IMG/VR virus record: IMGVR_UViG_3300045988_182790
Reading direction: 5' to 3' (one strand)
DNA from: a virus
DNA length: 64,000 bases
The translations under genes were made by a program, and so were the position numbers. Position 1 is the first letter of the stretch. Each line of letters begins with the position of its first letter. Below the pieces are notes generated by a model. The model ran no database searches, was not told where the DNA came from, and saw nothing but the letters and a program-made list of their open reading frames with translations. Shown here piece by piece: positions 37,075-55,826 of the stretch.

Positions 37075-37112
37075 CACAACATAATACAGTGCAATTTTCG
37101 TGCACTTTTTTG
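37075..37112. repeat. copy 1 (diverged) of 36-bp promoter-region repeat
   Basis: CACAACATAATACAGTGCA + hairpin AGTGCAattttcgTGCACT + T-run. Shares 19 nt with the copies at 38118 and 55791. Confidence 0.6.
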
Positions 37113-37220
37113 TTTGGTTTACATCCACATAGCATTTTTTGGCACTTTTTGTACTTAATTTGTTCTTAAATTTCATATTCCTTATACTGAACAATTTAAT
37201 ATTAAAAGGAGGAATTTATT

Positions 37221-37439
37221 ATGGTATTTTTCAAAAAGATTGAACAGGAAATTTCAAAGCCGCACATAAGGGCTGGGCTAAAACCTACAATTGAGCACGA
37301 ACTTCGCAAGATGACGGACACGAAAACTGATGCCGCCAGTGAACAATTCAAGAATCTTCTTATCACTTGGGGTTTTGCTGACAAGAATTTTGCTGTTACA
37401 AGGAAAGATTTGGAGCAAATACTCAAAATGATTGGATAA
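37221..37439 (+). CDS. small protein, paralog family S (72 aa)
   Basis: Paralog of 24503-24709. Promoter region AAATTTCATATTCCTTATA is shared. Confidence 0.5.
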   Translation: MVFFKKIEQEISKPHIRAGLKPTIEHELRKMTDTKTDAASEQFKNLLITWGFADKNFAVTRKDLEQILKMIG

Positions 37440-37440
37440 A

Positions 37441-37478
37441 CAAAAAGCGGAGGAGCATCGCCCTTCCGCTTTCTTTTT
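37441..37478. terminator. bidirectional terminator
   Basis: GCGGAGGagcatcgCCCTTCCGC followed by a T-run, between convergent genes. Confidence 0.5.
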
Positions 37479-37479
37479 G

Positions 37480-38049
37480 CTATTTATCACACATTTCTTT
37501 TATTGTTCCAGCATTTACAGATATATTTGTATAATATACAAGAGAATAAACAAGTATATTGTCATAATTTTCATTTTTTATTGCTTGCTTAGTTACCTCA
37601 AGAACATTTTTTGTAAATGCTATAAATTCTGCTATTGCATCCAACAAAGGAGTATTGTCCATTATATCAATAGGCACTAAGGTTAAATTTGTTTCTTCGT
37701 CTGTGTAACACTCAATTGTTGTTAATGTGTTTGCCAGAATAAGAATTGTATCAATAATGTTTTGCATTATTGTCACAATAATATTTTTATCTTGCACGTT
37801 TGACAAATCATTGTTAAGGCACTCTATTTTGCTTACAATAGAAGCTATATCTTCTAGCTTATCTTCTTTTTCTGGCAATCCTTGTTGCCAACGAAGCTTT
37901 TTCTCAGATGGTATATTTTCTGTATCTGTATCAGAAATCATTAATTTGATTCCATCAATAAAGTCTTCACCTGCTCCAGAAATATTGTTTATATCTTTTA
38001 GTTCGCTTTTGTGAAACTTTCTTTTAATTTCTTTTATCTTATCAGTCAT
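37480..38049 (-). CDS. paralog family L protein (189 aa)
   Basis: Shares KSELKDINNISGAGEDFIDGIKL and RWQQGLPE blocks with the 24726 and 57289 proteins. Confidence 0.5.
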   Translation of the reverse strand: MTDKIKEIKRKFHKSELKDINNISGAGEDFIDGIKLMISDTDTENIPSEKKLRWQQGLPEKEDKLEDIASIVSKIECLNNDLSNVQDKNIIVTIMQNIIDTILILANTLTTIECYTDEETNLTLVPIDIMDNTPLLDAIAEFIAFTKNVLEVTKQAIKNENYDNILVYSLVYYTNISVNAGTIKEMCDK

Positions 38050-38117
38050 ATTTTTGACACTCCTTTTATCATATCGTAGATAAAATTTGAAAAATATTCA
38101 AGAATTTTCATTTATAC

Positions 38118-38153
38118 ACACAACATAATACAGTGCAGATTTTTTGCGCTTTC
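38118..38153. repeat. copy 2 of 36-bp promoter-region repeat
   Basis: CACAACATAATACAGTGCAGATTTTTTGCGCTTTCT, identical over 36 nt to 55791-55826. Confidence 0.7.
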
Positions 38154-38164
38154 TTTTGTAAAAA

Positions 38165-38202
38165 AAATGGAGCTGTCTAAATGACAACTCCACTCCTTTT
38201 TG
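38165..38202. terminator. terminator after dnaE
   Basis: GGAGCTGTCtaaatGACAACTCC with T-runs on both strands. Confidence 0.5.
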
Positions 38203-40479
38203 TTACATGGCTACGATTTTTACGTCGTACCCATTCTCTGTTAATCTACCAACGACATCTGTAGATACTGTGAACTCTGTCTGACTTATATCAGACATTT
38301 CCTGCGTGTAAATTCTAAAGAAAAGTCCTGTTGTAAGGTCTGTTTCTTTATATCCCTGCGCAAAATTATAGATATTACACATATCTTCAATAGTTGGCGC
38401 AACAGCAAGAATTATTTTTGCCTGCTTATCAAGGACATTAAAGCTGTCAATAACAATCTGGTCTTCACCATTATTATCTGTGTCTTTATGTCCAATGATT
38501 TTTGTGATTGTTCCTGACTGAATGAGATTTTGATATTTCTCATAGGTTTTAGGAAAGCAAACGCCACTGATACTCTCTCCATCTTTGTCAGTGATTGTTA
38601 CAAATGCCATTTTGTCACCTTTTTTGGTTTTAATAACCTTTGCATCAGTGATGATTGCTGCCATTTTGACATTCGCTTTTTCATCTGCATTAACAATATC
38701 ATTGATAATCATGAGATTTGCGGTATCATAATCCTCTAAAGGATTTCCAGTAACCCACATTCCAAGAGCATCTACTTCTAAAAGAAGTCTTTTTTCTGTA
38801 GATAATGGGGCAACGTGTTTCTTTATAATACCTTTCATCTCATCACGAAGAATACTAAGTTCTCCCTGATATTTTCTAAGGTCAAGAACACGTTTGTTTT
38901 CCGCTTTCTCGTTTGTATATGACTGGTTTTCAAGCAAAGATATTTTTTCAATCTTCGTTTTAGCTTTTTTCCATACATCATCATAAGCCACAACATCAGT
39001 TGCACTTATTTCTCTGTTGATTGTGAAATCATCGCAAGCTCCAGAGTTAATAAGTTTTGCCACACAAGAAGCTCCGATTGTTGTTTTTTCAACAATCTCT
39101 TCGATTGAACGGAAATTGCCAGCTTTTTCTCTGTCTGCAACCAATACTTCTGCCGCACTCTTTAACCCTTTGATTGCTTTAAATCCTATTATGATGCCAT
39201 CTTTATATGGGTAATAATCTGCTTTGGATTCATTAATGTCTGGTCTATAAAGAGTGATGTTTGAAGCTTTACAATCAGCAACAAGCTGAGCTGTTTTGTC
39301 TGGTTGCCAGCCTATTATTGCGCACAAATATTCGCGCTTATAATGATATTTAAGCCATGCTGTAATATAAGATACAAGCGCATATGCTGCAGCGTGGGAT
39401 TTATTGAAACCATATTTAGCGAAAGGCATTAACTGGTCAAATAACCAATTTGCATCCTCTTCTGAAATATTTTGAGTTTCTTTACATCCTGTTACGAAAT
39501 CTGGTCTGACAGCGGCCAACTCTTCCTCATGTTTTTTGCTCATATGTCTTCTAACATTATCAGCATCACCCATGTCAAAGCCTGCCGCAGTTGTCATAAT
39601 GCTCATTACCTGCTCCTGATATACTGGGAACCCATATGTTTCAGACAAAATTGGTTCAAGAAAAGGGAATTTCTCCACAAATGGAGATTTTCTTCCAGTA
39701 TTCTTACAGTCAATAATGTCATCAATAAAATCCATTGGGCCAGGTCTGTATACAGAGATAGCAAGGATAATATCTTCGAAACAAGTAGGGTTAAGTCTTG
39801 TTAGCATCCCCTTCATTCCATCAGATTCTACCTGAAATACAAAGTTTGTATCTCCTTTAGCGTAAATATTCTGGAACACTTCTGTTTCAAAAGGAAGATT
39901 ATATGGCTCAATCTTTATGCCCTTTGTTTCGGTGATAATATGCATTGCATCAGTAATAGCATTAAGGTTTTTAAGCCCTAAGAAGTCCATTTTGATAAAT
40001 CCTAACTGGCCTTCGCACTGAACCATATCTGCTTGAACAGCAAATACTTCATTTCCATCATCATCGTTTGATTTCATAAGAGGTATATAATTCTCTACGT
40101 CAGTTCCATCAGAAATAATAATTCCTGCGGCGTGTGTTCCGTATGATGTTATATAGTTCTCAATCATCATTGCATAATCAATGATTGTCAGCGCTGTTTC
40201 ATTGCCGCTAAATTCAGCTTTCAACTCGTTTTCGTAATTAACGAGTTTTGCATTTGGTTCATCACCGATTAATTTACGCATTGACTTGTAAATGGAAATA
40301 TATTTCTTTTTATCTCCGCTCTCTTCAAGTCCAAGAAGCTTTGGTGCGTACTCAAGCGCGCTTTTTGCAGCAAGACGATTTTTTGTCATAATGTTTGCCA
40401 CAGAACGTTCACCGTATTTTTCCTTGACATATTTGATAGTGATTTCTCTTGCATGAGCTGAGAAATCTGTGTCAATATC
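38203..40479 (-). CDS. dnaE: DNA polymerase III alpha (DnaE-type) exon 2
   Basis: Begins DIDTDF (DnaE consensus DIDIDF). Contains GFNKSHAAAYALVSY (DnaE FNKSHSAAYA motif), fingers/thumb regions, and a C-terminal OB-like region. Confidence 0.85.
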   Translation of the reverse strand, partial: DIDTDFSAHAREITIKYVKEKYGERSVANIMTKNRLAAKSALEYAPKLLGLEESGDKKKYISIYKSMRKLIGDEPNAKLVNYENELKAEFSGNETALTIIDYAMMIENYITSYGTHAAGIIISDGTDVENYIPLMKSNDDDGNEVFAVQADMVQCEGQLGFIKMDFLGLKNLNAITDAMHIITETKGIKIEPYNLPFETEVFQNIYAKGDTNFVFQVESDGMKGMLTRLNPTCFEDIILAISVYRPGPMDFIDDIIDCKNTGRKSPFVEKFPFLEPILSETYGFPVYQEQVMSIMTTAAGFDMGDADNVRRHMSKKHEEELAAVRPDFVTGCKETQNISEEDANWLFDQLMPFAKYGFNKSHAAAYALVSYITAWLKYHYKREYLCAIIGWQPDKTAQLVADCKASNITLYRPDINESKADYYPYKDGIIIGFKAIKGLKSAAEVLVADREKAGNFRSIEEIVEKTTIGASCVAKLINSGACDDFTINREISATDVVAYDDVWKKAKTKIEKISLLENQSYTNEKAENKRVLDLRKYQGELSILRDEMKGIIKKHVAPLSTEKRLLLEVDALGMWVTGNPLEDYDTANLMIINDIVNADEKANVKMAAIITDAKVIKTKKGDKMAFVTITDKDGESISGVCFPKTYEKYQNLIQSGTITKIIGHKDTDNNGEDQIVIDSFNVLDKQAKIILAVAPTIEDMCNIYNFAQGYKETDLTTGLFFRIYTQEMSDISQTEFTVSTDVVGRLTENGYDVKIVAM

Positions 40480-40886
40480 CATTCATACCCTCGGTTTCCC
40501 GATATTTTGACTTTTAGGGGACTAGACTATATCTCGCTATTTAAAATAGCATGATGCACTTCGGTTAAGTATTCATCTCTTAACCTACTCTACTCGATTC
40601 GTCCTTAATAGGCTTATTCTCTTATTACTAAGAGTTACATTTATTAGTTCTTTCGATAGTCGTTACACTTTTGTTTATAATGTAATAAACACTTAGCACG
40701 GTATCACCTGCTATCTGTTTCCAGACCGTAGGCTCTCTTACGAAGCGGATTCGTCTATGGATTAAGCTGTATATCTCGTTGTGACGCTTCATACAGCAGT
40801 CTTATCTAGCTTCTACCGTTAGCACGTAACTCTTAGGCTACGCACACCCTTGAAAAAAGGTTCACATCATACGCCCAATATAGTTT
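40480..40886 (-). other. group I self-splicing intron (ORF-less, about 407 nt) in dnaE
   Basis: Exon 1 ends ...RVSMP (cct) and exon 2 starts DIDTDF, restoring the conserved RVSMPDIDxDF. Intron GGGCGT 11 nt in can pair with exon AUGCCU to form P1 with a U·G at the splice site. The last intron nt is G. AGATATAGTC is present (group I S-element-like). Confidence 0.65.
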
Positions 40887-42533
40887 AGGCATACTAACAC
40901 GATGAGGATTAAGAAATCGCTCAAACAAAAGATTGTATTTCATTGGGTCTATTTCTGAAATATCACTTAAATAACAAGCAAGCGAACCTCCCGCACTGCC
41001 TCGGCCTGGCCCGATTTCAGTTGAATTATCTCCATGACTTTTTGCATACTGAATGAAGTCAGCAACCTCGCAGAAATAATCATTAAAGCCCATCTGGTCA
41101 ATGATACTTAACTCGTATTCAAGTCTTTCCCTGTATTCCTTTGAAAATCCGTTTGGATAACGTTTAGGAATACCATCCTCACAAAGCTTACGAAGTCTTT
41201 CCTTTGCATTTTCAAACTTCGGATAATGTTTTGCGTCAGAAAGTTCTGGATTACACATTTTGGCGATAACTTCAATGTTTCCCATCGCTTCATCAACAAC
41301 ATCTTCTGGATAAAGCTGTAATAACATTTCAGCTAATTCATCGCCTGTTTTGAAATACAATTCATCATCGCCTGTAATAGCTTCTCGCCAAGGTCTATCC
41401 TGAGAAATTGACGCCAGATTTTCAAGAAGAAGTCTCTTCTTTGCATCTGTCTTATTTGCCATGTGGACATCATTTGTGGCCACAAGCGGAATATTCATTT
41501 CTCTTGCAAGTTTGACTATTACTGGATATATCATGGCTTCTGTATCTATGCCATGGTACTGAATTTCACAATAAAAGTCTGACTCAAAAACATCTACGAA
41601 AAACTTTGCGTACTTTTTACCCACAATGTAAAGTTCATCATCGTTTTTCTTTCTGGCCTCTAACAATGCAATTGCATCTTTATTCTTCTGAATAGTTTCC
41701 AATTTGGTCTTGTTCTTCGAAATAAGATTTTTGTTTGCTTTGTTATTGTTTTTTATTTCTTGTATTTGAGCCTTAAGAGATGAAATCTCATCCTTTGCTT
41801 CTTGTGCCTGAGCTTTTTCAATCTCAAGCGCTGCAAGCTTGAATTCTCTTTCTTCACTATCTTTGATTTTCTTGATTGCATTTTGTGTGGCACCAAATTT
41901 CTTTGATGCAATCGGAGTTAATTCTGCAATCTTTTCATTGATAGCTAGGATTTGCTTTTCTGCGACAGCATTGGATTCAAGAGCCTGTTGCAATCCGTCT
42001 GACAAATTGGATTTCGAAGATTCAATTCGATTTTGGATTTTTCTAATCTCTTTATCAATAAACAGATTGTAAGATAATGGTGTTGCTAATACTCCGCCAA
42101 CGCAGGCACTTGTTGCAACAACGTGTCCATACCCTAACGAGCCTTTACCGAAAAATTTCTTCAAATCCTTTAATTCGCCTACTGGTCTGCCAGAAATAAA
42201 ATTTCGATTTGTTTCTGATACAAACCTTGAGATTGCCTGAATACCTTCATAATCTTTTGCTAAAAGAACTAGATGTGCTCTCTTTTTTATTATGAAAGTT
42301 TCAGTTACAGGGATTTCAGTGTTGATATAAGCTTCAACACCAAGAATTGGTTTAATGTCATTCTCTTTGGCTGCATTATAAAAATCAAGCCAATTCCAAC
42401 AGCCTCCATGGTCTGTTATGGCTATAGCAGGCATTTTTAATTCTTTAGCCTTGCTGATACATTCTGATACAGTCATAGCTCCGTCATTGAGCGACGCATC
42501 AGTATGTACGTGTAGATTGATATTTGTTTTCAT
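40887..42533 (-). CDS. dnaE: DNA polymerase III alpha (DnaE-type) exon 1 (PHP domain with coiled-coil insertion)
   Basis: PHP motifs HVHTDASLNDGA and ITDHGG. Ends GGSLACYLSDISEIDPMKYNLLFERFLNPHRVSMP. K/E-rich insertion of about 130 aa inside the PHP domain. The track ORF continues into the intron to 40833. Confidence 0.85.
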
Positions 42534-42574
42534 ATTTTCCCTCCTTGATTATTCTTTTTATAAAGTTCACAAAG

Positions 42575-42587
42575 AATATGAGATTTG
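42575..42587 (-). promoter_or_regulatory. class-A conserved upstream motif (example)
   Basis: CAAATCTCATATT about 40 nt before the dnaE exon-1 ATG. Confidence 0.5.
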
Positions 42588-42686
42588 AAAAGTGAAGTAA
42601 GCGATGTGATATATACAAATAGAGGGCATATTTGAGAAAATATTCAAAAAAAAGAACCACAATTTCTTGCGGTTCTAATTTTTTGT

Positions 42687-43412
42687 TTACCAATTTGCAA
42701 AAGCTATGATTTCACGTTCCTTTTTTATGTTTGCTATCGCATTTTCATAGAAAACTCGGTCAACCATTGTTTTTGCAATTTTTTCTTGCTCGTCCAAAGC
42801 TTCCTTTGCTTCCTGCATTTTGCTAGAAACTAAGTAATTATAAGCTTCTGGGTCTTCCGCTTTCAGCTGGAGCGGAGTTATTTTGATACGTTCCATTTTT
42901 TGATAATTCGGTTCATCAGCCTCATCAATAGAACGCTTGATGTACGTGCCAACAGGAGGGTTTGTTGGAATATCGCATTCATATCCATATTCCTGCGTGA
43001 CAAATTCTGTTGGTAAGTGGGTTCCTAGTCCAATAACCTCGAAAAACGGTTTAAGGTAACTAGCTTCTTTTACTACCTCACTTCTTTCTTCGGACATTGC
43101 AATGCTTTCTTTGTCAATACCGAACGAGTCAATTATCCAGTTGAGAGCATCCACAAAAGATAATGACAAATAATTCATTACCATTGTGAAAATATCTCCG
43201 CCAGACCGACAACCAAAGCAATAATAACTTTTGTTGTCCTGCGAAACAACGCAGTTGGTGAGGTTTTTATCAACCTTACCAAGGTTTTTCATGTGATTTG
43301 GACACTCCAACCACATTTTTCCGCTTTTGTACTTGGTTCTAAGACCAAGTTGATTTGCGACCTCTTCTACGGAAACCATCTCTTTCAGTAGGTCTTTGTC
43401 TATCATACTCAT
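42687..43412 (-). CDS. DnaG-like primase zinc-binding (CHC2) domain protein
   Basis: CPNHMKNLGKVDKNLTNC...CFGCRSGGDIFT matches the primase CHC2 zinc-finger pattern. No TOPRIM region seen. Confidence 0.65.
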   Translation of the reverse strand: MSMIDKDLLKEMVSVEEVANQLGLRTKYKSGKMWLECPNHMKNLGKVDKNLTNCVVSQDNKSYYCFGCRSGGDIFTMVMNYLSLSFVDALNWIIDSFGIDKESIAMSEERSEVVKEASYLKPFFEVIGLGTHLPTEFVTQEYGYECDIPTNPPVGTYIKRSIDEADEPNYQKMERIKITPLQLKAEDPEAYNYLVSSKMQEAKEALDEQEKIAKTMVDRVFYENAIANIKKEREIIAFANW

Positions 43413-43502
43413 AGTTTTTACTCCCTTACATGAAGATTTTTTATAGTATGAATATGAGTTTTAGACATAAAAAAACCACTCTCTTTTGAGAGTGGTGATA
43501 AA

Positions 43503-43691
43503 CTACAATGTGAAAATATAATAAAAGCAGAGGATTATTATGCCAATGTCTACTAAATAGCCAACGCCATAAGCAAATATTTCTGCTCTCGAATTATAAA
43601 TGCTTCTTACTTGCTCTGCTAATGGTTTTGTCATTCTGATACCAAAAACAATAATTGCAAGTAGTATTAATTTTATAACTGGTGTGGTCAT
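43503..43691 (-). CDS. small membrane protein (62 aa)
   Basis: Two hydrophobic helices. Confidence 0.35.
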   Translation of the reverse strand: MTTPVIKLILLAIIVFGIRMTKPLAEQVRSIYNSRAEIFAYGVGYLVDIGIIILCFYYIFTL

Positions 43692-44094: not shown

Positions 44095-44115
44095 TTTTTT
44101 ACTCCTTTTGTGAAA

Positions 44116-47553: not shown

Positions 47554-47591
47554 TCCCCCTCCCAGTAATCACCCTAATCTTGTTTTATATT

Positions 47592-47608
47592 TATATAGTG
47601 GGTAAAAA
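47592..47608 (-). promoter_or_regulatory. class-B conserved upstream motif (example)
   Basis: TTTTTACCCACTATATA on the gene strand, preceded by TTTTTGTTAGATAAAAT. About 10 similar copies in the window. Confidence 0.5.
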
Positions 47609-47661
47609 GTATATTTTATCTAACAAAAATAGCAGAGAATTTCTTCCCTGCTATCGTGTTG

Positions 47662-48821: not shown

Positions 48822-48866
48822 GAAATAGTTCCTCCATTTTTTCTATGGTTTCTAGTCCGTATGTAA

Positions 48867-49358
48867 TTACTTCTGCTTTGCAGCTTCTTTATCCGCGTCT
48901 GTAAAATCGCTTTCTCCAAATACTGAAAATCTATATTCATGTATGCTTTTAGTTGCAATTTCTTCATTCTTATTACAATCTATATCACTTATAATCCCTT
49001 TTGCTCCTAAAATATTCAAATCAGTAATCATCTTTGATTTTTTATATTTTAGAATTGGCACTTCTGCATCCATTTTATAGACGGTTGTTGTGAAAGCATT
49101 ATTACCCTCACCAAAAAACTTATCGTAATCTGTTTTGGATAATTCAAAGCTCTCGCTGCAGTCATGGAAAAATTCATTTATTTGCCCATCATCCGTTGTG
49201 AAATGCAATTCATAATAAGTTTCGTTGTTGAGTGTGTATGTGTCCTCTATGACAATATGAGCTATAATGTTATATGCGCATGTGTTGATTGTAGCATCTG
49301 GGGATTTGTCGTTTGCTATATTATATGTCTGTTTATTGCATCCATTGAGTAACAGCAA
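48867..49358 (-). CDS. lipoprotein (163 aa)
   Basis: Lipobox MLLLNGC. Confidence 0.5.
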   Translation of the reverse strand: MLLLNGCNKQTYNIANDKSPDATINTCAYNIIAHIVIEDTYTLNNETYYELHFTTDDGQINEFFHDCSESFELSKTDYDKFFGEGNNAFTTTVYKMDAEVPILKYKKSKMITDLNILGAKGIISDIDCNKNEEIATKSIHEYRFSVFGESDFTDADKEAAKQK

Positions 49359-49453
49359 TATTACTACTGTTATAGCTATTGTTAAGAAAAATTCGTATTA
49401 CTTTTTCATCCACTATCTTTCCTTTTCCTGCGTTAAAACTGGTTCCCACCATT

Positions 49454-49813
49454 TCAAATCTTTTCGGCATCATTGTTGGCATCATTTTCTTTGCTGACAA
49501 CCAACGTGCGAACAAGTTTTTTCTTTGCCTCTTGTGGCTGTTCGGGTGTGAGTTCGGTCTTAATCTCTTTGTGAGAAGTAGTATTTTTTACAGCTTTTCC
49601 CTTTGACAGCTTGTTTACTGAGAGGCTTTTGTTAATGAGCATAGTTGTAAGCAAAAATGTTGTAAGCAAAGTTTTCTTGCAGGCTTCTCCTTCCTGTAGT
49701 TCGTTGTCTTTTGTTTTTAAAATATTTGCGTGTTTGAAGAGATGTTTGTATACATATTCTTCGTCTTCCGTAAAGTCTATATTTACCGACATTGCTTGAC
49801 TTATGTCCAGCAA
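49454..49813 (-). CDS. hypothetical protein (119 aa)
   Basis: Intact ORF. Confidence 0.35.
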   Translation of the reverse strand: MLDISQAMSVNIDFTEDEEYVYKHLFKHANILKTKDNELQEGEACKKTLLTTFLLTTMLINKSLSVNKLSKGKAVKNTTSHKEIKTELTPEQPQEAKKKLVRTLVVSKENDANNDAEKI

Positions 49814-50127
49814 CTAAATCTTCCTGCCTGCCATAATTCACAAATGATTGCAATTGGAACAAATACATATATATATCCAAAAGTTATCATATGTGTCTTA
49901 GTGTCTGTGACAGCTGAAATATGAAGAAATGTCATTGCTGCAGTAAGGAATATTGCTGTTTGCAATGATACAACTAATAGTAATAATGATGATGTTATAT
50001 ATGCCATCATAAGAGACAGGATTTCATTTGACGTTAATGAAATCCTATACTCTTTATCATGTTTGATATCATACACACCATAACAAAGCAATCCTGCGTA
50101 TACTGGGAGTAAAATACTGTTAATCAT
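49801..50127 (-). CDS. small polytopic membrane protein, possible TadV/CpaA-type prepilin peptidase
   Basis: Three TM helices with conserved-position Asp (YDIKHD, VTDTK). Sits in the Tad operon, but GGGD-type motif not seen. Confidence 0.35.
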   Translation of the reverse strand: MINSILLPVYAGLLCYGVYDIKHDKEYRISLTSNEILSLMMAYITSSLLLLVVSLQTAIFLTAAMTFLHISAVTDTKTHMITFGYIYVFVPIAIICELWQAGRFSCWT

Positions 50128-50815
50128 TTTTTACCCTTACCATTGTTACGTCATTATCTCCAGCCGCATCATAGAATTTAGCTACATCATCTCGTTCCAT
50201 TTCAATTACGAAATACAATGCTGTCGAAGTAGTATCATTGCTCTGAATTTCTAGGTATGAAGAGTCATAAGATGCAACAATATACACGTTTGAAAGTAAC
50301 AGTTTGTTTGTTTTATGAATTGTATCTTCTTCTGTACCTTCCGCAATATACAAATCTACAACATCTCCAGCTCTGATATAACCGTTTACAGCACTATCTG
50401 CTCTTGAGACTGCGAATGATACCTCTACAGGGTCTTTAATGTTGCTATTGATTGTTGAGGAATCTTTTACTTTTGTAGATGAAAGAATTTCTCCTTTTGA
50501 TACTGGAGTAATAAGTCTTCCTGTGATGTCATCAAGCGATGTATATGTGGTTGTTGTTATAAGAGCGGAATTGACTGACTCAATGCCAAAATAGTCTTTT
50601 ACATTTTTTGAGGAGATAATCGTTCCTTCCTCAATATCTTTTAGTGCATACACGGCTGGAGAAATGTCTTTATCCGTGAGGACATATGCTTGAGCGGCGG
50701 TTAAACCTACCCAAACAACAAGTCCAACCACAAGTGTTACAGCCCATTTTGTCAATGACTTGCTGACGGTATGTTCTTTCTTCTCTTTAGTTCTACTTTT
50801 GCCTTTTTTGAACAT
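50120..50815 (-). CDS. CpaB/RcpC-like pilus assembly protein
   Basis: N-terminal TM anchor plus SAF-like domain (ALKDIEEGTIIS). Confidence 0.5.
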   Translation of the reverse strand: MFKKGKSRTKEKKEHTVSKSLTKWAVTLVVGLVVWVGLTAAQAYVLTDKDISPAVYALKDIEEGTIISSKNVKDYFGIESVNSALITTTTYTSLDDITGRLITPVSKGEILSSTKVKDSSTINSNIKDPVEVSFAVSRADSAVNGYIRAGDVVDLYIAEGTEEDTIHKTNKLLLSNVYIVASYDSSYLEIQSNDTTSTALYFVIEMERDDVAKFYDAAGDNDVTMVRVKND

Positions 50816-50832
50816 ATCTTACACCTCTTTAT

Positions 50833-51105
50833 TTAGTTGAAAATTCCAAGAATTTTGCTACTAAGCTTTCCCATAAATGAATCGGCTCCTGGTGCGCCAC
50901 TCTCATAATCGCTGTTTCCAAAAATAATGTAGGTTAAAGCTTTTCCAAGTGCTAGGATTACGAGAATGATTACGAAGATAATTACAATTTTCCCAATCAA
51001 ATCAGACTCGCCAGCCTTTTTTGTTTTGATACTTTCAATGGCATCATCGACCATCATATTAGCTTTTGTTTTTGTTGAAATAATAAGGTTGTCCAGTTTC
51101 TTCAT
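50833..51105 (-). CDS. Flp-family pilin-like protein (90 aa)
   Basis: Short protein with central hydrophobic stretch GKIVIIFVIILVILALG after a Gly. Sits in a Tad operon. Atypical leader. Confidence 0.3.
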   Translation of the reverse strand: MKKLDNLIISTKTKANMMVDDAIESIKTKKAGESDLIGKIVIIFVIILVILALGKALTYIIFGNSDYESGAPGADSFMGKLSSKILGIFN

Positions 51106-51181
51106 GGTTGTTATAAAGTCCTTTCTATTATTGTTTTAAAATTGTTACATAATATATATGAAATATAAAAAATAGGGTTAA

Positions 51182-51901
51182 TCACGACGCAGGCTCGATT
51201 TGTGAAAAGCTTTCTATCTGTATTCGCCTTGAGAATACCTCATCACTTAAGGATATGAATGCTTTTGGCAAATCCAAGTCAAAAGAAAATACTGCGTATA
51301 CTGTAGGAAGATGCAAGTCACTTCTTCTATGTGTACTAAACGGTGAACCTGATAATGTTCCTGATGTGGAGGTTCTTTTCTGGATTGATACTGAACTGAA
51401 ATCTTTATGTTCAGAACCATTAACAATTTGCATCATATTGATATTGCTAACTCTGTATTCAACTAAAGTAGTACCTACATAATCATATATATAAAAATCA
51501 TCAACAGTAAAATCTCTTACATTCAACTGATTAGCGGCCCAGCCAACGTTTCCACCGCTAAAACCAGTTGGTGTAATTCCCATTGTTGTTGTGAGGGATG
51601 ACAAATATTTATGTAATCTGTCATACACCTCAGCTCGTTCTTCGTCTGAAACCGTTATGCTGGATGCGTCTGCGGAGCCTATTATTTGAAATTTTCTATT
51701 TGACCTATATTCATCCGCATTGATTACTGCAGCGGACATTGTTGCAGAATCAGCATCATTTCGTATATTCTCACTTAAAATTTCAGCCGCGCGAAGATAC
51801 AAGCCTAAACAAAGAAACATTATCATAAAAAAGACAAAGAACATGGATATTAACATGACTGCAAAGCCTTTTTTCTTCTGTTTTACAATTCTTTTTATCA
51901 T
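51182..51901 (-). CDS. TadE/TadF-like pseudopilin
   Basis: Basic N-terminus plus hydrophobic helix FAVMLISMFFVFFMIMFL, as in TadE-like proteins. Confidence 0.45.
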   Translation of the reverse strand: MIKRIVKQKKKGFAVMLISMFFVFFMIMFLCLGLYLRAAEILSENIRNDADSATMSAAVINADEYRSNRKFQIIGSADASSITVSDEERAEVYDRLHKYLSSLTTTMGITPTGFSGGNVGWAANQLNVRDFTVDDFYIYDYVGTTLVEYRVSNINMMQIVNGSEHKDFSSVSIQKRTSTSGTLSGSPFSTHRRSDLHLPTVYAVFSFDLDLPKAFISLSDEVFSRRIQIESFSQIEPAS

Positions 51902-51906
51902 AATTT

Positions 51907-52416
51907 TTACTCCTTTGAAGTCGTAGACAAATGAATTGTCATTACAGCATTTGATTTCTTAAACATTGGTATAAAGTCTGATGCGCCTTTGCCCATCTCA
52001 AAAAACGTCTCACAGCACACTGTTATATCCAGCTGAATTTCTTCTCCATAGCCAAGGTCTGATGTTGTGGTATTGTTTGTATATGAATTTCCTAATGCTG
52101 TAACTGTTCCTTTGATACAGCTGGAATCTACTGGCGCTGTACCGTCCTTTGTATAACCTGCATCATTCAACGCATCAATGAGATTTTGCATCTCATTTGC
52201 GCCACCAACAGTATTAGTCAAATATCCATCACTTTCCATTTTAAGAAGATACTCTCGCGCAATGGAATTTAATTTGTTTTTATTATTGATTGCAACATTC
52301 AAATTGAGATACAAAACAATTATGACTGAGGCTACTGCCATAAAAATCATCATAATCAGTAAATCTTCAAGGGAGCCTTTCTTCTTTTGTCTGTAAAAAA
52401 AATGTAGTTTTTTCAT
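51907..52416 (-). CDS. TadE-like pseudopilin
   Basis: Same architecture as 51182-51901. Confidence 0.45.
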   Translation of the reverse strand: MKKLHFFYRQKKKGSLEDLLIMMIFMAVASVIIVLYLNLNVAINNKNKLNSIAREYLLKMESDGYLTNTVGGANEMQNLIDALNDAGYTKDGTAPVDSSCIKGTVTALGNSYTNNTTTSDLGYGEEIQLDITVCCETFFEMGKGASDFIPMFKKSNAVMTIHLSTTSKE

Positions 52417-52438
52417 TTTCGTATGAAGCTCCTTTCTG

Positions 52439-53308
52439 TTACCATAGTGACATCAAACTTTCACCAAGTTGAAGACCTACTGTATAAAGCGCAAGAACGA
52501 TAATTCCAGAGAAAAATGCAATACTTAGCATTGTTGCCGACTTTTTGGCTTTTATCTTCTCATTTTCAAAACGAATTTTATTATTATCTTCTATCTGTCC
52601 ACTTATATCTTTAGTCATCTCAATAATTCTTCCTGTTCTGAATGACTGTTTGATTATGTCAGCCAGGTCATCTATCTGAGGATTATCAAAACGCATTTTG
52701 AAAACGGAAATGGCCTCTTCCATTGTCATTTTTCGAGACAGGATATTGTTATTAAGTTCTGTAAGCGCTTTTTTCAATCGTTTGTTAGTTACGGAACGCT
52801 GACAGTCAATCAATGAGTCGCCGATAAAAAGTCCAGCTCTCGCCTCTGTTTTTAATGTGCTGTAAATGGTGACAATATCGTCTTCCATCTCAAGATTATC
52901 TTTTCTGTTCTTCGATTTAGCATTAACATCTGGTAACATAAATCCTACGAAAAACATCAGTATTGCGCCAAGAATTTTTATAGTGAATGTTGGTGCTACA
53001 ATAAGTGTTGCAATAGATGTCAATGCGCCATAAATTATTTTTTCGAAGATGAATGTTACAGGGTCAAGTTCATAATCATTACGCCTGTACATAATTCCTG
53101 TCTGGGAAAGAAAAGCTTCTAATGAACTTTTGTTAAAATAAGATTTCTTCCCCTCGACTGAATCCATTTTGCTTTTTATTGCTTCTTTTGACAGTGCAAC
53201 AAATGTATCCGTTTTCCCTATTAATGTAAAAACTATCAATGCAGCACTTATGCAAGCAATAAGAGTTACTAAAATTTTTGCTATTGTAATAAGATTGAGT
53301 GCATCCAT
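52439..53308 (-). CDS. TadC-like (T2SS-F family) inner-membrane platform protein
   Basis: About 290 aa with 3 TM segments and a cytoplasmic helical domain. Paired with a second GspF-like gene. Confidence 0.55.
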   Translation of the reverse strand: MDALNLITIAKILVTLIACISAALIVFTLIGKTDTFVALSKEAIKSKMDSVEGKKSYFNKSSLEAFLSQTGIMYRRNDYELDPVTFIFEKIIYGALTSIATLIVAPTFTIKILGAILMFFVGFMLPDVNAKSKNRKDNLEMEDDIVTIYSTLKTEARAGLFIGDSLIDCQRSVTNKRLKKALTELNNNILSRKMTMEEAISVFKMRFDNPQIDDLADIIKQSFRTGRIIEMTKDISGQIEDNNKIRFENEKIKAKKSATMLSIAFFSGIIVLALYTVGLQLGESLMSLW

Positions 53309-53311
53309 ACG

Positions 53312-54313
53312 CTACTTCCTATCCTTTCTTATAGTGCTGATGATACCGACAAGAATAACTACTCCGAGATATACCAATATTGCTCGTCCCACAATCGTTC
53401 CGAAGATGGAATTCCAAATATCTTCTACAATCATTGATAAAACATACATAATTCCGCATCCAGCGACAGCAAGTATGCCAATCTCTCCGAGGAAATTTTT
53501 TCTGATGTTTCGCATTTGTCTTTTAAAGCTTACATATTCTTTTACATCAGTTTTGTTTTCCTCAATAACTTCTGCATAATTCTCATTGTGCATAGCACAT
53601 ATTCGTAAAGAATTGATGATTGCTCTGAATTTTTTATGATTCACTTTTGTTGACAATCGTTTTAGCGACTCATCTACTGGGACACCTGATTTTATTTCGT
53701 AATAGCACTGTTCTACTGGAACCCTGAGAGGTTCTGAAAGATAAGGTACTGTTCGTCCAAGCATTTCGCCAATTGTATTTTCAAGCGAACTCATGTTATC
53801 AAGGGCATTCATAAACTTAAGTAACTGATTTTCGATATTAATGTAGTTTTTAATAGCTTTTACTTCGAGGTAAATGAATGTAAAAGCGAGGATAACACAA
53901 AAGTTTACAAATCCAATTAATGAATTATGCATCCAAAATCCAATGATTGTGCTGAGAATAACGGTTATACCTACAATCAGAAATATAAAGTTTTCAGCAT
54001 TAAGCTCTGGGTATCTGTCTTTTAATCCTGCATCCAGAATAAGACTATCCACTTTGGACAAAACACCCTCTTGTTCAGTTTCTCCTTCTAGTAGATATCT
54101 TTGTTTGTATTCCTCTTCTCTTATTTTTCTCTGTTTATCAATGTTTGCTTGTAATTTTGCAAACTTCATTGAAAACCAATGATGGTTGAATAAATATGAT
54201 ACAAAGAAAAATGCAGAAATAATAAACACAATCGCTAAGGCAATCTGCAAATAAGCAAGTATGGGATTTGCAAGCCAAATTGATTCAAAGTACTGAATAA
54301 TTTTTTCTTTCAT
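53312..54313 (-). CDS. TadB-like (T2SS-F family) inner-membrane platform protein
   Basis: Same family architecture as 52439-53308. Confidence 0.55.
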   Translation of the reverse strand: MKEKIIQYFESIWLANPILAYLQIALAIVFIISAFFFVSYLFNHHWFSMKFAKLQANIDKQRKIREEEYKQRYLLEGETEQEGVLSKVDSLILDAGLKDRYPELNAENFIFLIVGITVILSTIIGFWMHNSLIGFVNFCVILAFTFIYLEVKAIKNYINIENQLLKFMNALDNMSSLENTIGEMLGRTVPYLSEPLRVPVEQCYYEIKSGVPVDESLKRLSTKVNHKKFRAIINSLRICAMHNENYAEVIEENKTDVKEYVSFKRQMRNIRKNFLGEIGILAVAGCGIMYVLSMIVEDIWNSIFGTIVGRAILVYLGVVILVGIISTIRKDRK

Positions 54314-54318
54314 AGTTC

Positions 54319-55710
54319 CTACTCCTTATCTGTATCTTCTACAATATCGCTTTCCTGAACTGGTTCTGATTTATCTTCTGGAACATTTTCGAGTTCTTCA
54401 AGTTCATGTTCTTTTGAGAGCTTGTATTCAATTTCAGCCAGTTCCTCTTTTTCAGCATCATTTGGTTTATAATTTAGGATTGTAGACTCCTCTGGATGGC
54501 GTCTATCATACACTGTGTCATAAATTATGGAGTAGGTATCACCTGATGTATCAAGGCCTCTAATTTCAGAAATTTCTTCTATTTTATAATTCTTCATAAA
54601 GATAACCACTTCCATAGCAGAAAGCATTGTGAGAACTTCATTCATTGTGTACCCTGTTGCCTGCATAATATAGTCAGCAAGCTTATACATAGCATCCTTT
54701 GAACTTTTACCGTGTACAGATGTCCAACATTTATGTCCTGTATATGCAGCCATGGCAAAGCTTTTTGCTTCCATACCCTTAATCTCACCAATCATGTAAT
54801 AATCGTTATCTGTGAGAAGACCATTTCTTGCAATATCTGCAAGTTCATAGCTGACTTTTCCCTCAGTACTTGCATTGACAGGTGATTGATACATAAAGTC
54901 TGGATGGTCACTAAATAACTCGGCACTTTCCTGAGCAATAAGTCCAGAATAAATAGTTGGAATATTATCAATCTCTGCATTCATTAAAGTAGATTTTCCT
55001 GATGCACCCTTTCCAGTGTAAATAATTCCACTTGAACACTTTGCTTTTATTTCCAAATATGGAACAAGCTCAGGTGGGAACATTTTTGCTTCTATCAGAT
55101 TATTCATATCCTTTTTGCGCTTAAGGATTTTTCTAATCTGGATTACTGGTAATTTACTTTCGTTGATGATACCGCCAGTAATATTAAAACGAAGTCTTGC
55201 GTGTTCATTATTATCAACGTCAGTAAATACACGAATAGCATTGGCATCAGTTAGTGATACTCCATTCTTCGAACAGACATTATCAATAAAACTGATATAA
55301 TCTGCTCTATCAATAAACTTAACGTTTGTAGCCTTTCGTTCGCCCTTTCGTTTAAGTCTGATATGCCCCTCGTCATAAATCTTGATATCAGAAATATCAT
55401 CATCGGCCAAAAAGTCTTCCAAAATGTAATAACCCCAAATTCGCTTGTCTAATCGCTTGAGGGTATCTTCAATTTGAGCTTCATCGCAAGTTACTGTTTG
55501 CAAATGTTTTCTCATCATTTTGAAGAATTCGTCTTTTGAGATGATATTCCTCTGAATGTTTGCGAGGTAATTACGGTCTGGCGCACTGGCATAATCAATT
55601 GCATACTTGAACAAGTCCCCTTCGTATCGTTCTACTGGTTCATTTTCAATTGTTACCTCTTTTTTCTGTTTCTTGAAAAAATTAAACATAAAACTTTTTT
55701 GTCCTTTCAT
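54319..55710 (-). CDS. CpaF/TadA-type secretion ATPase (VirB11/GspE superfamily)
   Basis: Walker A TGKGASGKST, Walker B-Asp box DNDYYMIGEIKGMEA, His box GHKCWTSVHG. Confidence 0.85.
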   Translation of the reverse strand: MKGQKSFMFNFFKKQKKEVTIENEPVERYEGDLFKYAIDYASAPDRNYLANIQRNIISKDEFFKMMRKHLQTVTCDEAQIEDTLKRLDKRIWGYYILEDFLADDDISDIKIYDEGHIRLKRKGERKATNVKFIDRADYISFIDNVCSKNGVSLTDANAIRVFTDVDNNEHARLRFNITGGIINESKLPVIQIRKILKRKKDMNNLIEAKMFPPELVPYLEIKAKCSSGIIYTGKGASGKSTLMNAEIDNIPTIYSGLIAQESAELFSDHPDFMYQSPVNASTEGKVSYELADIARNGLLTDNDYYMIGEIKGMEAKSFAMAAYTGHKCWTSVHGKSSKDAMYKLADYIMQATGYTMNEVLTMLSAMEVVIFMKNYKIEEISEIRGLDTSGDTYSIIYDTVYDRRHPEESTILNYKPNDAEKEELAEIEYKLSKEHELEELENVPEDKSEPVQESDIVEDTDKE

Positions 55711-55760
55711 TTTGTTTACGTTTAAAATGTGAAATACGGAAAAAGAGGTTAAAAAAAAGA

Positions 55761-55788
55761 ACTACCGTTGTCGGTAGTCCTTTTTATA
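55761..55788 (-). terminator. terminator between the 36-bp repeat and the Tad operon promoter
   Basis: GGACTACCGacaaCGGTAGTTC followed by T8 on the gene strand. Confidence 0.45.
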
Positions 55789-55790
55789 TC

Positions 55791-55826
55791 ACAACATAAT
55801 ACAGTGCAGATTTTTTGCGCTTTCTA
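55791..55826. repeat. copy 3 of 36-bp promoter-region repeat
   Basis: Identical to 38118-38153. Lies between the TnpB 3' region and the Tad operon start. Confidence 0.7.

What the first reader, a model, noticed from the sequence alone, without database searches (positions are those of the whole stretch)
37075..55826. 36-bp near-identical element at three promoters (J-domain gene, paralog-L gene, Tad operon)
CACAACATAATACAGTGCAGATTTTTTGCGCTTTCT is identical at 38118-38153 and 55791-55826. A 19-nt core plus a hairpin is present at 37075-37112. Each copy sits 60-115 nt before a gene start: 36998 (J-domain protein), 38049 (paralog-L), 55710 (CpaF). At the Tad locus it is followed by a terminator hairpin and then the class-A motif. 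It could be an operator for a shared regulator linking the Tad pilus and the AAA+/J-domain membrane module. Alternatively it could be a miniature repeat derived from an IS right end, since the 55791 copy abuts the TnpB 3' region.
Basis: seen in the sequence. Interest (0 to 1): 0.55.

Follow-up and report, generated by a model that had tools for sequence, protein, structure and literature searches.

The report
Short repeat bracketing an accessory cassette
A 36-base sequence repeated three times in an uncultured gut plasmid- or phage-like genome is real, is not a transposon end, and most likely is a promoter-derived junction sequence left where small accessory gene cassettes were spliced between conserved operons, which is an ordinary kind of feature for mosaic mobile genomes.

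Summary
The repeat is real. A third copy at 37075-37110 shares a 19-nt exact core. No further copy occurs in about 75 kb of the source contig, and public DNA collections gave only chance hits.

It is not an IS end. Comparison with homologous TnpB elements puts the right end at about 55923, 97 nt from the repeat.

It is not one of the window's two abundant promoter motifs (class A, class B). Copy 2 does align in register with two terminator-proximal "B2" promoters.

Two relatives have dnaE followed directly by the J-domain gene. Copies 2 and 1 therefore bracket, as direct repeats 1,044 bp apart, a two-gene accessory cassette. Copy 3 lies at the edge of the conserved Tad promoter block. A paralogous cassette elsewhere is bracketed by a different perfect 65-nt repeat.

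Best reading (confidence about 0.5): a promoter/stem-loop junction module copied by cassette recombination, analogous to PeSLs of T4-type phages. A shared-regulator operator is not excluded, but the relatives do not support it.

Interest is low to moderate.

The parts
38119..38154 (-). Element copy 2 (36-mer; similarity to copy 3 extends to 38111-38154). It lies 10 nt after the T-run of the dnaE terminator and upstream of the class B promoter of L189. Its inverted repeat is at 38132-38150.
55790..55825 (-). Element copy 3 (identical 36-mer; extended similarity 55783-55825). It lies 97 nt beyond the right end of the TnpB IS and immediately upstream of the terminator and class A module of cpaF. 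Its inverted repeat is at 55803-55821.
37075..37110 (-). Element copy 1 (19-nt exact core 37075-37093; 6 substitutions over 36 nt). Perfect inverted repeat AGTGCA-N7-TGCACT at 37088-37106. It lies 34 nt upstream of the class A motif of the J-domain gene.
   Evidence: (D13)
37152..38101 (.). Accessory cassette bracketed by copies 1 and 2. Contents: class A(+) promoter and RBS (37152-37216), 72-aa gene (37221-37439, +), bidirectional terminator (about 37440-37480), L189 gene (37480-38049, -) and class B promoter TTGAAT-17-TACGAT (38073-38101, -). The cassette is absent from relatives L042 and L045/L046. It is paralogous to the cassette at 24434-25393.
38161..38202 (-). Intrinsic terminator of dnaE-C (-23 kcal/mol). 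This is the conserved left seam of the insertion.
36357..37040 (-). J-domain-like gene (36357-36998; HPD motif; ortholog in L042 at 43% and in L045 at 32% identity) with its class A motif TATCTCATATT (37030-37040). This is the conserved right seam of the insertion.
55726..55781 (-). Conserved promoter block of the Tad operon: terminator hairpin (about 55745-55781, -17 kcal/mol) and class A motif TATTTCACATT (55726-55736) before cpaF (54319-55710).
55923..57330 (-). TnpB-only IS200/IS605-type element, which is not part of the repeat. The tnpB ORF is 55975-57246. Homology to L019 runs 57281-55931. The right-end hairpin is CCCCGATGC-TTTA-GCATCGTGGG, followed by AGTGTCAA ending at about 55923. The left-end hairpin CCCTAATC-TTTA-GATTAGGG lies at about 57291-57310. 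The left boundary is approximate.
57289..57928 (-). L192, an L-family paralog (N-terminal 54 aa are 37% identical to L189), with its class B promoter TTGAAT-17-TACAAT (57900-57928). It is part of the variable region upstream of copy 3.
5424..5462 (-). B2-type promoter (T-run, TAAAAC, 17 nt, CACTAT-GT). It is one of the two closest in-register matches to copy 2 (27 of 44).
   Evidence: (D11)
14005..14043 (-). B2-type promoter (T-run, TAAAAC, 17 nt, CACCAT-AT). It matches copy 2 in register at 28 of 44.
   Evidence: (D11)

Best explanation
The element is a short intergenic module specific to this lineage. It derives from this replicon's own terminator-proximal sigma-70-like promoter type, here called B2: a T-run, an A-rich stretch, 17 nt, then CACyAT-AT. 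A 6+7+6 inverted repeat occupies the spacer position.

It does not belong to the TnpB insertion sequence. It sits at seams between conserved operon blocks and accessory cassettes of the 'L' family.
- Copies 2 and 1 are direct repeats 1,044 bp apart. They bracket a two-gene cassette (L189 and a convergent 72-aa gene, each with its own promoter) inserted between the dnaE terminator and the J-domain gene's promoter.
- Copy 3 lies at the edge of the conserved terminator/class A/cpaF block. Next to it is a variable region holding the L192 paralog and a TnpB IS.

Proposed mechanism. As with the promoter/stem-loop (PeSL) modules of T4-type phages, such promoter-bearing intergenic modules travel with cassettes. 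They also supply the short homology at which cassettes are swapped in or out by recombination. On this view the 36-44 nt identity between the L copy and the Tad copy is a trace of recent copying, not a sign of co-regulation.

Shown here: the repeat itself, its separation from the IS, its position at the insertion seams, its in-register similarity to B2 promoters, and a second cassette bracketed by another perfect repeat.

Inferred: that recombination at the repeat produced the arrangement. It is also only inferred that the module still acts as a weak promoter and/or a repressor-binding inverted repeat.
For: - The repeat is real and limited to three copies in about 75 kb.
- The IS boundary was mapped by homology with TnpB elements at 81% and 62-64% identity. 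Similarity ends at 55931, and the right end ...GTGTCAA lies at about 55923. TnpB guide RNA takes only about 16 nt of flank next to the right end (PMC8612924).
- The closest relative, L042 (DnaE-C 66%, AAA+ 69%, J 43% identity), has dnaE-C, terminator, class A motif and J gene within 94 nt. The more distant L045/L046 have the same order within 97 nt. Downstream synteny is kept: AAA+, three small ORFs, then PhoH/PIN.
- The window's extra 1.1 kb begins 10 nt after the terminator T-run with copy 2. It ends with copy 1 plus 34 nt before the class A motif.
- L189 has no homolog at E <= 0.001 other than itself in a word-indexed search of 5.8 billion proteins.
- The paralogous cassette at 24434-25393 (s74 with L203) is bracketed by a different 65-nt perfect direct repeat of promoter sequence (D2).
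- The 44-mer of copy 2, anchored on its hexamer, matches the B2 promoters at 5431 (27 of 44) and 14012 (28 of 44). Only 6 of about 128,000 positions reach 27 or more (also family D11).
- Like the B2 sites, copy 2 directly follows a terminator T-run.
- PeSLs are described as promoter plus stem-loop motifs, with the stem-loop often between -35 and -10. They flank orphan ORFs and mediate indels and mini-circles (PMC2839356; PMC4122927).
Against: - The element fails two positions that are invariant in 13 class B/B2 sites. It has G instead of C just before the hexamer, and G instead of A at hexamer position 5.
- It has no -35 hexamer and no correctly spaced extended -10. The consensus scan does not call it a promoter.
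- At cpaF a transcript starting at the element would meet a strong terminator within about 15-50 nt.
- There are only three copies, whereas PeSLs number about 50 per genome.
- The 19-nt core shared by copies 1 and 2 is at the lower limit for homologous recombination.
- The relatives are too diverged (about 66-73% protein identity) to map breakpoints to the base. They also lack the element altogether, so element gain and cassette gain cannot be ordered.
- Upstream of cpaF, the relative L015 carries an unrelated gene. 'Insertion' there means only loss of synteny.
- No recombination product was observed.
Confidence: 0.5

Rival explanations
1. Operator or upstream activator site for one DNA-binding regulator that coordinates the J-domain/AAA+ operon, the L189 gene and the Tad operon. 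A dimeric protein would bind the AGTGCA-N7-TGCRCT inverted repeat, centred about 65-85 nt upstream of each gene's own -10 element.
For: - The inverted-repeat arms are conserved at 11 of 12 positions, while the 7-nt spacer differs at 4 of 7 positions between copy 1 and copies 2/3.
- All copies have the same orientation and lie 70-80 nt before start codons.
- The perfectly conserved 19-nt stretch is longer than recombination alone would require.
Against: - The orthologous J-gene upstream regions in L042 and L045 are 94-97 nt long and contain only a terminator, the class A motif and the RBS. The Tad upstream regions of L015, L016 and L018 keep the class A motif, and alignment of the element against them found no significant match beyond terminator-like stretches.
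- The best-conserved part is the non-palindromic 13-mer, not the second half-site.
- No HTH regulator was found among the window ORFs scanned with Pfam.
- One of the three 'targets' is an orphan cassette gene.
- Three sites, two of them recent copies of each other, give effectively two independent observations.
Confidence: 0.2
2. An att-like core site for site-specific capture of promoter-bearing cassettes. The 19-bp identical core would be the crossover region. Copy 2 would correspond to attL and copy 1 to attR of an integrated circular cassette of 1,044 bp. Copy 3 would be a second, unoccupied or half-occupied site.
For: - The direct repeats bracket exactly the segment missing in relatives.
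- The core is perfect while the arms differ. The left arm of copy 2 equals that of copy 3 but not that of copy 1, and the right arms are all similar, TATAAA-like.
- An inverted repeat with a 7-bp spacer resembles a recombinase core site.
Against: - No integrase or resolvase gene was seen in the roughly 75 kb examined. The only serine-recombinase traces are truncated IS607 tnpA remnants.
- The second L cassette is bracketed by an unrelated 65-nt promoter repeat, which points to general rather than site-specific recombination.
- The element is not a dif/Xer site, because only one XerD-like half-arm is present (inspection).
Confidence: 0.12
3. A feature of the plus strand, antisense to the genes. 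It would be either a weak intrinsic terminator/insulator, or a roughly 40-nt antisense small RNA made of an invariant 13-nt 5' seed (CACAACAUAAUAC) followed by a terminator hairpin and U tract.
For: - The pattern scan calls all three copies terminator-like on the + strand: 4 found against 0.6 expected, and 2 found against 0.2 expected.
- The hairpin folds in all three + strand RNAs.
- Copy 2 is preceded on the + strand by a degenerate class A-like motif, AATTTTCATTTAT.
Against: - The hairpins are weak, at -6 to -8 kcal/mol. The replicon's real terminators are -15 to -23 kcal/mol.
- Copies 2 and 3 sit next to strong bidirectional terminators, so a + strand terminator there would be redundant.
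- No common + strand promoter precedes copies 1 and 3.
- The apparent + strand preference of the stem rests on one transition. A transition always gives G.U on one strand and C.A on the other, so it carries no information.
- There is no Rfam match and no trans target within 2 mismatches in the window.
Confidence: 0.08
4. A miniature repeat derived from an IS200/IS605/IS607 end.
For: Copy 3 lies within 150 nt of a tnpB stop codon. The element contains a small hairpin, as IS200/IS605 ends do.
Against: - The IS right end, mapped by homology, ends 97 nt away.
- The element does not resemble the IS left-end or right-end hairpins.
- Copies 1 and 2 have no IS next to them.
- The TnpB at 20937-22115 and the TnpB in L012 lack the element.
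- The 19-mer gave only chance hits in IMG/VR, GTDB genomes and JGI metagenomes.
Confidence: 0.03

Closest known systems
PeSL (promoter-early stem-loop) mobile regulatory cassettes of T4-type phages (Arbiol et al. 2010, PMC2839356; Comeau et al. 2014, PMC4122927)
   Same: Both are short repeated intergenic modules that combine promoter-like sequence with a stem-loop lying in or next to the -35/-10 spacer. Both sit after terminators or stop codons, flank orphan accessory ORFs in variable regions, and occur as direct repeats bracketing indels relative to close relatives.
   Different: - There are only 3 copies here, against about 50 per genome.
- There is no canonical -35/-10 pair.
- The stem-loop is weak.
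- The host replicon is an uncultured AT-rich plasmid- or phage-like element with Lachnospiraceae-like relatives, not a T4-like myovirus.
- Neither promoter activity nor recombination was demonstrated.
This replicon's own class B/B2 sigma-70-like promoters (TTGAAT-17-yACwAT-AT, 11 sites; B2 subclass at 5424-5462 and 14005-14043)
   Same: - The position is the same: directly after a terminator T-run.
- The layout is the same: A-rich stretch, 17 nt, then CACTxT-AT.
- Copy 2 matches them in register at 27-28 of 44 positions.
- The strand is the same as the genes.
   Different: - The C before the hexamer and the A at hexamer position 5 are invariant in class B and are both G in the element.
- There is no TTGAAT.
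- Copies 1 and 3 lack the upstream T-run and A-rich context.
- Each downstream gene already has another promoter.
Stoperators of cluster A mycobacteriophages (for example PMC9283540)
   Same: Both are asymmetric, orientation-biased short sites in intergenic DNA of a mobile genome. They could bind a repressor and block transcription.
   Different: Stoperators are 13-14 bp and number in the tens per genome. They share sequence with the operator of the early promoter and have a known cognate repressor. Here there are 3 copies, no candidate repressor and no operator counterpart.
IS200/IS605 right ends and TnpB guide-RNA flanks (Karvelis et al. 2021, PMC8612924)
   Same: The element is close to a TnpB gene and contains a hairpin.
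   Different: The element lies 97 nt outside the mapped right end. It is beyond the roughly 16-nt guide, is unrelated to the end hairpins, and is absent from the other TnpB loci.
Cassettes bounded by recombination sites (integron attC; pdif modules of Acinetobacter plasmids). This comparison rests on my own knowledge and was not checked in the literature here.
   Same: In both cases small gene modules are bracketed by copies of a short site containing an inverted repeat.
   Different: There is no integrase and no full Xer site. The repeats are direct rather than inverted, unlike pdif pairs. The cassettes carry their own promoters, unlike integron cassettes.

Membership tests
PeSL-type promoter/stem-loop regulatory cassette | Contains a sigma-70-type promoter (-35 and -10 at 16-18 nt) | tested here: not met
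   The consensus scan finds no promoter in any copy. The only partial matches are -10-like CACTGT or TATTAT with an A-rich region in place of a -35.
PeSL-type promoter/stem-loop regulatory cassette | Stem-loop within or next to the promoter that can attenuate transcription | tested here: inconclusive
   A 6-8 bp stem is present in all copies, but it is weak: -6 to -8 kcal/mol against -15 to -23 for real terminators here.
PeSL-type promoter/stem-loop regulatory cassette | Flanks orphan or accessory ORFs in variable regions and marks indels relative to close relatives | tested here: met
   Copies 1 and 2 bracket the L189/72-aa cassette, which is absent in L042 and L045/L046. L189 has no homolog at E <= 0.001 apart from itself.
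PeSL-type promoter/stem-loop regulatory cassette | Many copies per genome (tens) | tested here: not met
   There are 3 copies in about 75 kb. 25 kb of the contig was not seen.
Class B promoters of this replicon | TTRNAY, 16 nt, C, then yWCnAT-AT with invariant C at -13 and A at hexamer position 5 | tested here: not met
   The pattern gives 11 hits, all on the minus strand, against 0.8 expected. The element is not among them, and its PWM score is strongly negative.
Class B2 subclass (T-run, TAAAAC, 17 nt, CACyAT) | In-register similarity over the whole promoter, and position right after a terminator | tested here: inconclusive
   Copy 2 matches at 27 and 28 of 44, among only 6 of 128,000 positions reaching 27 or more. 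It follows the dnaE terminator T-run. Copies 1 and 3 lack the upstream part (19-24 of 44).
IS200/IS605 end or IS-derived miniature repeat | Lies inside the transposon end, or is homologous to its left-end or right-end hairpin | tested here: not met
   Homology with L019, L020, L022 and L023 ends at 55931. The right-end TCAA is at about 55923, and the element starts at 55825. The hairpin sequences are unrelated.
IS200/IS605 end or IS-derived miniature repeat | Recurs at other copies of the IS | tested here: not met
   No copy lies near TnpB 20937-22115 or the TnpB in L012. Public collections gave only chance hits.
TnpB guide (omega/reRNA) target | Sequence immediately 3' of the right end (about 16 nt) | tested here: not met
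   The guide position would be the reverse complement of 55903-55922, CAGTAGTCTAGTATTTTACG. The element is 97 nt further on.
Intrinsic terminator | Stable GC-rich hairpin followed by a U tract, downstream of a transcription unit on the same strand | tested here: inconclusive
   The pattern is matched on the + strand. However, the hairpin is weak, and no + strand gene ends there.
Operator of a dimeric regulator | Inverted repeat with conserved arms; a cognate regulator; conservation at orthologous promoters | tested here: inconclusive
   The inverted repeat is present (arms 11 of 12 conserved, spacer variable). No regulator was identified. The site is absent from the orthologous J-gene upstream regions, and no significant match to it was found upstream of cpaF in relatives.
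Sigma-54 promoter | GG at -24 and GC at -12 (TGGCAC-N5-TTGCA) | tested here: not met
   Copy 1 reads GTGCACGAAAATTGCA and copies 2/3 read GCGCAAAAAATCTGCA. The -24 GG is missing in all (inspection).
dif/Xer site | Two 11-bp arms with inner CATAA / TTATG symmetry around a 6-bp centre | tested here: not met
   Only one XerD-like arm, TTATGTTGTGT, is present. The opposite arm, AAAAAATCTGC, shows no symmetry (inspection sequence).

The most novel reading that the evidence does not exclude
The 19-bp core is the crossover site of a cassette-capture system that needs no recombinase encoded within the cassette. Small self-promoted two-gene cassettes (an L protein plus a convergent protein of about 72 aa) would circularise and integrate at copies of the element placed in front of core operons of a large uncultured gut replicon. 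This would be an integron-like or 'mini-circle' gene-shuffling mechanism in a plasmid- or phage-like element with Lachnospiraceae-like relatives.

An alternative novel reading is that the element encodes a roughly 40-nt antisense RNA with an invariant 13-nt seed.
Probability: 0.1. Interest if true: 0.6.

Novelty: new member of a known kind. Interest (0 to 1): 0.27.

Why it matters
If the reading is right, the repeat records how this uncultured 100-kb gut replicon gains small accessory cassettes between conserved operons. The replicon carries its own split DnaE, primase, several helicases and a Tad-like pilus operon. The repeat is not evidence that the pilus and the AAA+/J-domain module share a regulator.

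This bears on annotation, because short exact repeats near promoters should not be read as regulons without comparative support. It also offers a concrete, testable case of recombination mediated by regulatory modules outside the T4-like phages.

The feature is otherwise ordinary.

Tried and rejected
- **Public DNA searches.** The exact 19-mer core was searched in IMG/VR (0 hits), GTDB genomes (2 hits) and JGI metagenomes (4 hits). All hits were unrelated by context. No megablast match of the region was found in the phage or plasmid collections. tblastn with DnaE-C found nothing above 36% identity.
- **Identical fragments.** Fragments from other samples (L009-L011) are 100% identical to the window, so they offer no variation to exploit.
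- **Homolog search with L189.** It returned only L189 itself.
- **TnpB guide idea.** The element is 97 nt beyond the right end, so it is not the guide or its target.
- **Class B PWM.** The element fails at invariant positions.
- **Rfam.** Nothing at or near gathering score was found at any copy.
- **Alignment to relatives' intergenic regions.** Aligning the element to the cpaF and J-gene upstream regions of relatives gave only matches to terminator-like T/A runs. There was no significant match in L015.
- **Strand of the hairpin from the G.U pair.** Rejected as uninformative. One transition in a palindrome always favours one strand.
- **Motif resemblances checked by eye and rejected.** These were sigma-54 (-24 GG absent), dif/Xer (one arm only), the LexA/Cheo box, TcdR-type -35/-10 (spacing of 32 nt), the DnaA box, the integron core site GTTRRRY, and a tiny ORF (ATG TTG TG..) without an RBS.
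- **L015 as an 'empty site' for the Tad locus.** Its upstream gene is not orthologous to the window's 487-aa gene. Only loss of synteny can be claimed there.
- **A second large contig.** One other large contig shares the exact 196-aa protein, but it could not be displayed. Look-ups of CpaF, L189 and J and the AAA+ cluster record gave only the source contig among large contigs.

Full report
**1. Observation**

The 36-mer CACAACATAATACAGTGCAGATTTTTTGCGCTTTCT occurs exactly twice on the + strand, at 38119-38154 and 55790-55825. None of 100 shuffles gave a match. With one gap the similarity extends to 44 nt at 95% identity (38111-38154 / 55783-55825).

A third copy has the exact 19-nt core at 37075-37093. 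It differs at 6 positions over the rest of the 36-mer and carries a perfect inverted repeat AGTGCA-N7-TGCACT. Copies 2 and 3 have AGTGCA-N7-TGCGCT.

All copies are on the same strand. They lie 77, 70 and 80 nt upstream of the minus-strand start codons at 36998, 38049 and 55710.

**2. Source and spread**

Exact-protein look-ups place the window in a 100.3-kb metagenomic contig, ena:ERZ27229639:k119_147736. Short fragments 100% identical to it occur in five other ENA assemblies, one of them labelled as a gut metagenome.

I scanned the window plus 11 kb of flanking contig, allowing up to 4 mismatches in the core. Only the three copies appeared. The exact 19-mer gave nothing in IMG/VR. It gave six hits in GTDB genomes and JGI metagenomes, all unrelated by context.

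The replicon has no close relative among deposited phages or plasmids. It is 34% G+C, and nearly all its genes are on the minus strand. Its genes include:
- RecD2, UvrD-like and SF2 helicases, a PARP-like protein and a DnaG-like primase;
- a split DnaE;
- a SpoVK-like AAA+ protein next to a J-domain-like protein;
- a PhoH/PIN protein and a flotillin;
- a Tad-like operon (CpaF/TadA, two TadB/C-like proteins and a CpaB-like protein);
- several TnpB elements.

**3. Promoter landscape**

Read on the minus strand, the intergenic regions show two abundant motifs.
- Class A is AWWTYTCAYATT. It has 14 exact hits against 1.3 expected. It lies about 35-45 nt before ribosome-binding sites, usually right after a terminator. 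It is conserved in the relatives L015, L016, L018, L042 and L045.
- Class B is TTGAAT, 17 nt, then yACwAT-AT. It has 11 hits, all on the minus strand, against 0.8 expected.

Each gene downstream of the element has its own promoter of one of these classes between the element and its RBS.
- The J-domain gene has class A at 37030-37040.
- L189 has class B at 38073-38101.
- cpaF has class A at 55726-55736, preceded by a strong terminator.

The element itself is neither class. It fails two positions that are invariant in 13 class B sites. The consensus scan does not call it a promoter.

Copy 2 does, however, match two terminator-proximal 'B2' promoters when anchored on its hexamer CACTGT. These are at 5424-5462 and 14005-14043 and have the layout T-run, TAAAAC, 17 nt, CACyAT. 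The matches are 27 and 28 of 44 positions. Only six of about 128,000 positions in the window reach 27, and the other four include the three copies themselves (also family D11). Like the B2 sites, copy 2 starts about 10 nt after a terminator T-run. The element therefore looks like a diverged derivative of this promoter type, with an inverted repeat in the spacer position.

**4. Not an IS end**

The TnpB at 55975-57246 has homologs at 81% identity (L019) and 62-64% identity (L020-L023) in IMG/VR. DNA similarity to L019 runs from 57281 to 55931.

In the alignment of 3' flanks, all elements lose similarity after a hairpin followed by ...TCAA. In the window this is CCCCGATGC-TTTA-GCATCGTGGG-AGTGTCAA, ending at about 55923.

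TnpB guide RNAs take only about 16 nt of flank next to the right end (PMC8612924). The element begins 97 nt further on. It resembles neither end hairpin and is absent from the other TnpB loci.

**5. Comparative context**

The closest relative is L042 (DnaE-C 66%, AAA+ 69%, J protein 43% identity). It has the dnaE-C stop, a terminator, the class A motif, the RBS and the J gene within 94 nt. It then has the same downstream gene order as the window. The more distant L045/L046 have the same adjacency within 97 nt. An alignment with a reconstructed 'no insertion' junction of the window fits in length and order.

The window therefore carries about 1.1 kb extra. The extra segment begins with copy 2 and ends with copy 1 plus 34 nt. 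It contains, in order:
- the class B promoter;
- L189, which returned no homolog at E <= 0.001 other than itself in the protein-homolog search;
- a bidirectional terminator;
- a convergent 72-aa gene;
- that gene's class A(+) promoter.

Copies 2 and 1 are thus direct repeats, 1,044 bp apart, that bracket an accessory cassette.

The cassette has a paralog at 24434-25393 (s74 41% identical to the 72-aa protein; L203 about 28-30% identical to L189). That paralog is bracketed by a different direct repeat: a perfect 65-nt copy of class A(+) promoter plus RBS (D2). A third L paralog, L192, lies upstream of copy 3 together with the TnpB IS.

Upstream of cpaF the relatives are not syntenic with the window. 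L015 has an unrelated gene there, and L016 and L018 have other small ORFs. Copy 3 therefore sits at the edge of the conserved terminator/class A/cpaF block.

**6. Interpretation**

The most economical reading is a promoter-derived junction module that marks, and probably mediated, the splicing of L-family cassettes between conserved operons. The 36-44 nt identity between copies 2 and 3 would be a trace of recent copying.

This is what PeSL modules do in T4-type phages. PeSLs are promoter plus stem-loop motifs, often with the stem-loop between -35 and -10. They flank orphan ORFs, mediate indels between close relatives and can release mini-circles (PMC2839356; PMC4122927).

The element works like a PeSL in position and architecture. 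It is not a member of that family, for four reasons: it has no canonical promoter, its stem is weak (-6 to -8 kcal/mol against -15 to -23 for real terminators here), it has only three copies, and its replicon is unrelated.

Whether it still fires as a weak promoter, or binds a repressor at the inverted repeat, is inference only.

**7. Rivals**

- *Shared-regulator operator.* This remains possible. The inverted-repeat arms are conserved and the spacer is not, and orientation and distance are uniform. Nothing comparative supports it, though, and the three sites amount to only two independent sequences.
- *att-like crossover core.* This fits the pattern of a perfect core with differing arms. No recombinase was seen, and the other cassette uses a different repeat.
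- *Plus-strand terminator or antisense RNA.* This fits the pattern scan. The hairpin is weak, strong bidirectional terminators sit beside copies 2 and 3, and there is no common + strand promoter. The apparent strand preference of the stem comes from a single transition, which is uninformative.

**8. Verdict**

The repeat is real and well delimited. It is not IS-derived and not evidence for a Tad/J-domain regulon. Most likely it is an ordinary by-product and tool of mosaic cassette exchange. Confidence in that reading is about 0.5. Interest is low to moderate.

Noticed in passing
window 38203-42533 (spacer 40483-40832); L045 4166-4717: DnaE is split into a PHP/N-terminal ORF (40833-42533) and a C-terminal ORF (38203-40482), within the Pfam DNA_pol3_alpha domain. 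A 350-nt spacer without an ORF separates them and has no Rfam match. Relatives L045/L046 have an HNH_3 endonuclease ORF at the same split. This suggests a decayed intron or homing-endonuclease insertion, or a two-subunit polymerase.
   Followed up: partly
window 24434-24498 and 25394-25458: A perfect 65-nt direct repeat (class A(+) promoter plus RBS), 960 bp apart, brackets a second L-family cassette (s74 at 24503-24709 +, L203 at 24726-25334 -). The second copy drives a + strand gene (25464-25985) with a CdiA-CT RNase A-like toxin domain (Pfam E = 1.7e-10).
   Followed up: partly
window 20816-20888 (-): A RAGATH-18 RNA (RF03064, 72.8 bits, gathering score 44.9) lies directly downstream of TnpB 20937-22115. 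This is consistent with it being that element's guide-RNA scaffold.
   Followed up: no
window 22280-22436 (-) and 57995-58151 (+): Two copies, 90% identical over 157 nt and in inverted orientation, of an IS607-like left end plus a truncated MerR-type tnpA N-terminus (MNTSNI..KPKDFAELLGVSVKTLQR). The second copy overlaps the 3' end of the 487-aa gene.
   Followed up: no
window, intergenic regions throughout (e.g. 1006-1017, 10443-10454, 22149-22160, 42575-42586; class B e.g. 26418-26446, 47595-47623): There are two abundant promoter-like motif classes. Class A (AWWTYTCAYATT) has 14 hits against 1.3 expected and is conserved in relatives that encode their own sigma-70-family proteins. Class B (TTGAAT-17-yACwAT-AT) has 11 hits, all on the minus strand, against 0.8 expected. 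They may represent two temporal or sigma-specific promoter classes of this replicon family.
   Followed up: partly
window 57289-57330: The left-end hairpin of the TnpB IS (CCCTAATC-TTTA-GATTAGGG) contains the stop codon of the L192 ORF. The last roughly 14 codons of L192 are therefore IS sequence, which means the IS probably inserted into the 3' end of that gene.
   Followed up: no
window 17584-17683 and 29520-29590; 11570-11635 and 11817-11882: Further promoter/RBS modules are repeated at 76-84% identity in front of unrelated genes. One pair brackets a small ORF. This shows that duplicated regulatory modules are common in this genome.
   Followed up: no
L015 1536-1690: In the closest Tad relative, the space between two terminators upstream of cpaF holds a sigma-70-like promoter and a possible 29-codon hydrophobic ORF that overlaps the second terminator and the class A motif. 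This could be a leader or attenuator.
   Followed up: no
window 9109-10401 (-), 34849-35091 (-), 31206-32786 (-): Unusual cargo for a mobile replicon: a PARP catalytic-domain protein (Pfam E = 3.5e-20), an HPr-like protein (E = 2e-6) and a flotillin/Band_7 protein.
   Followed up: no
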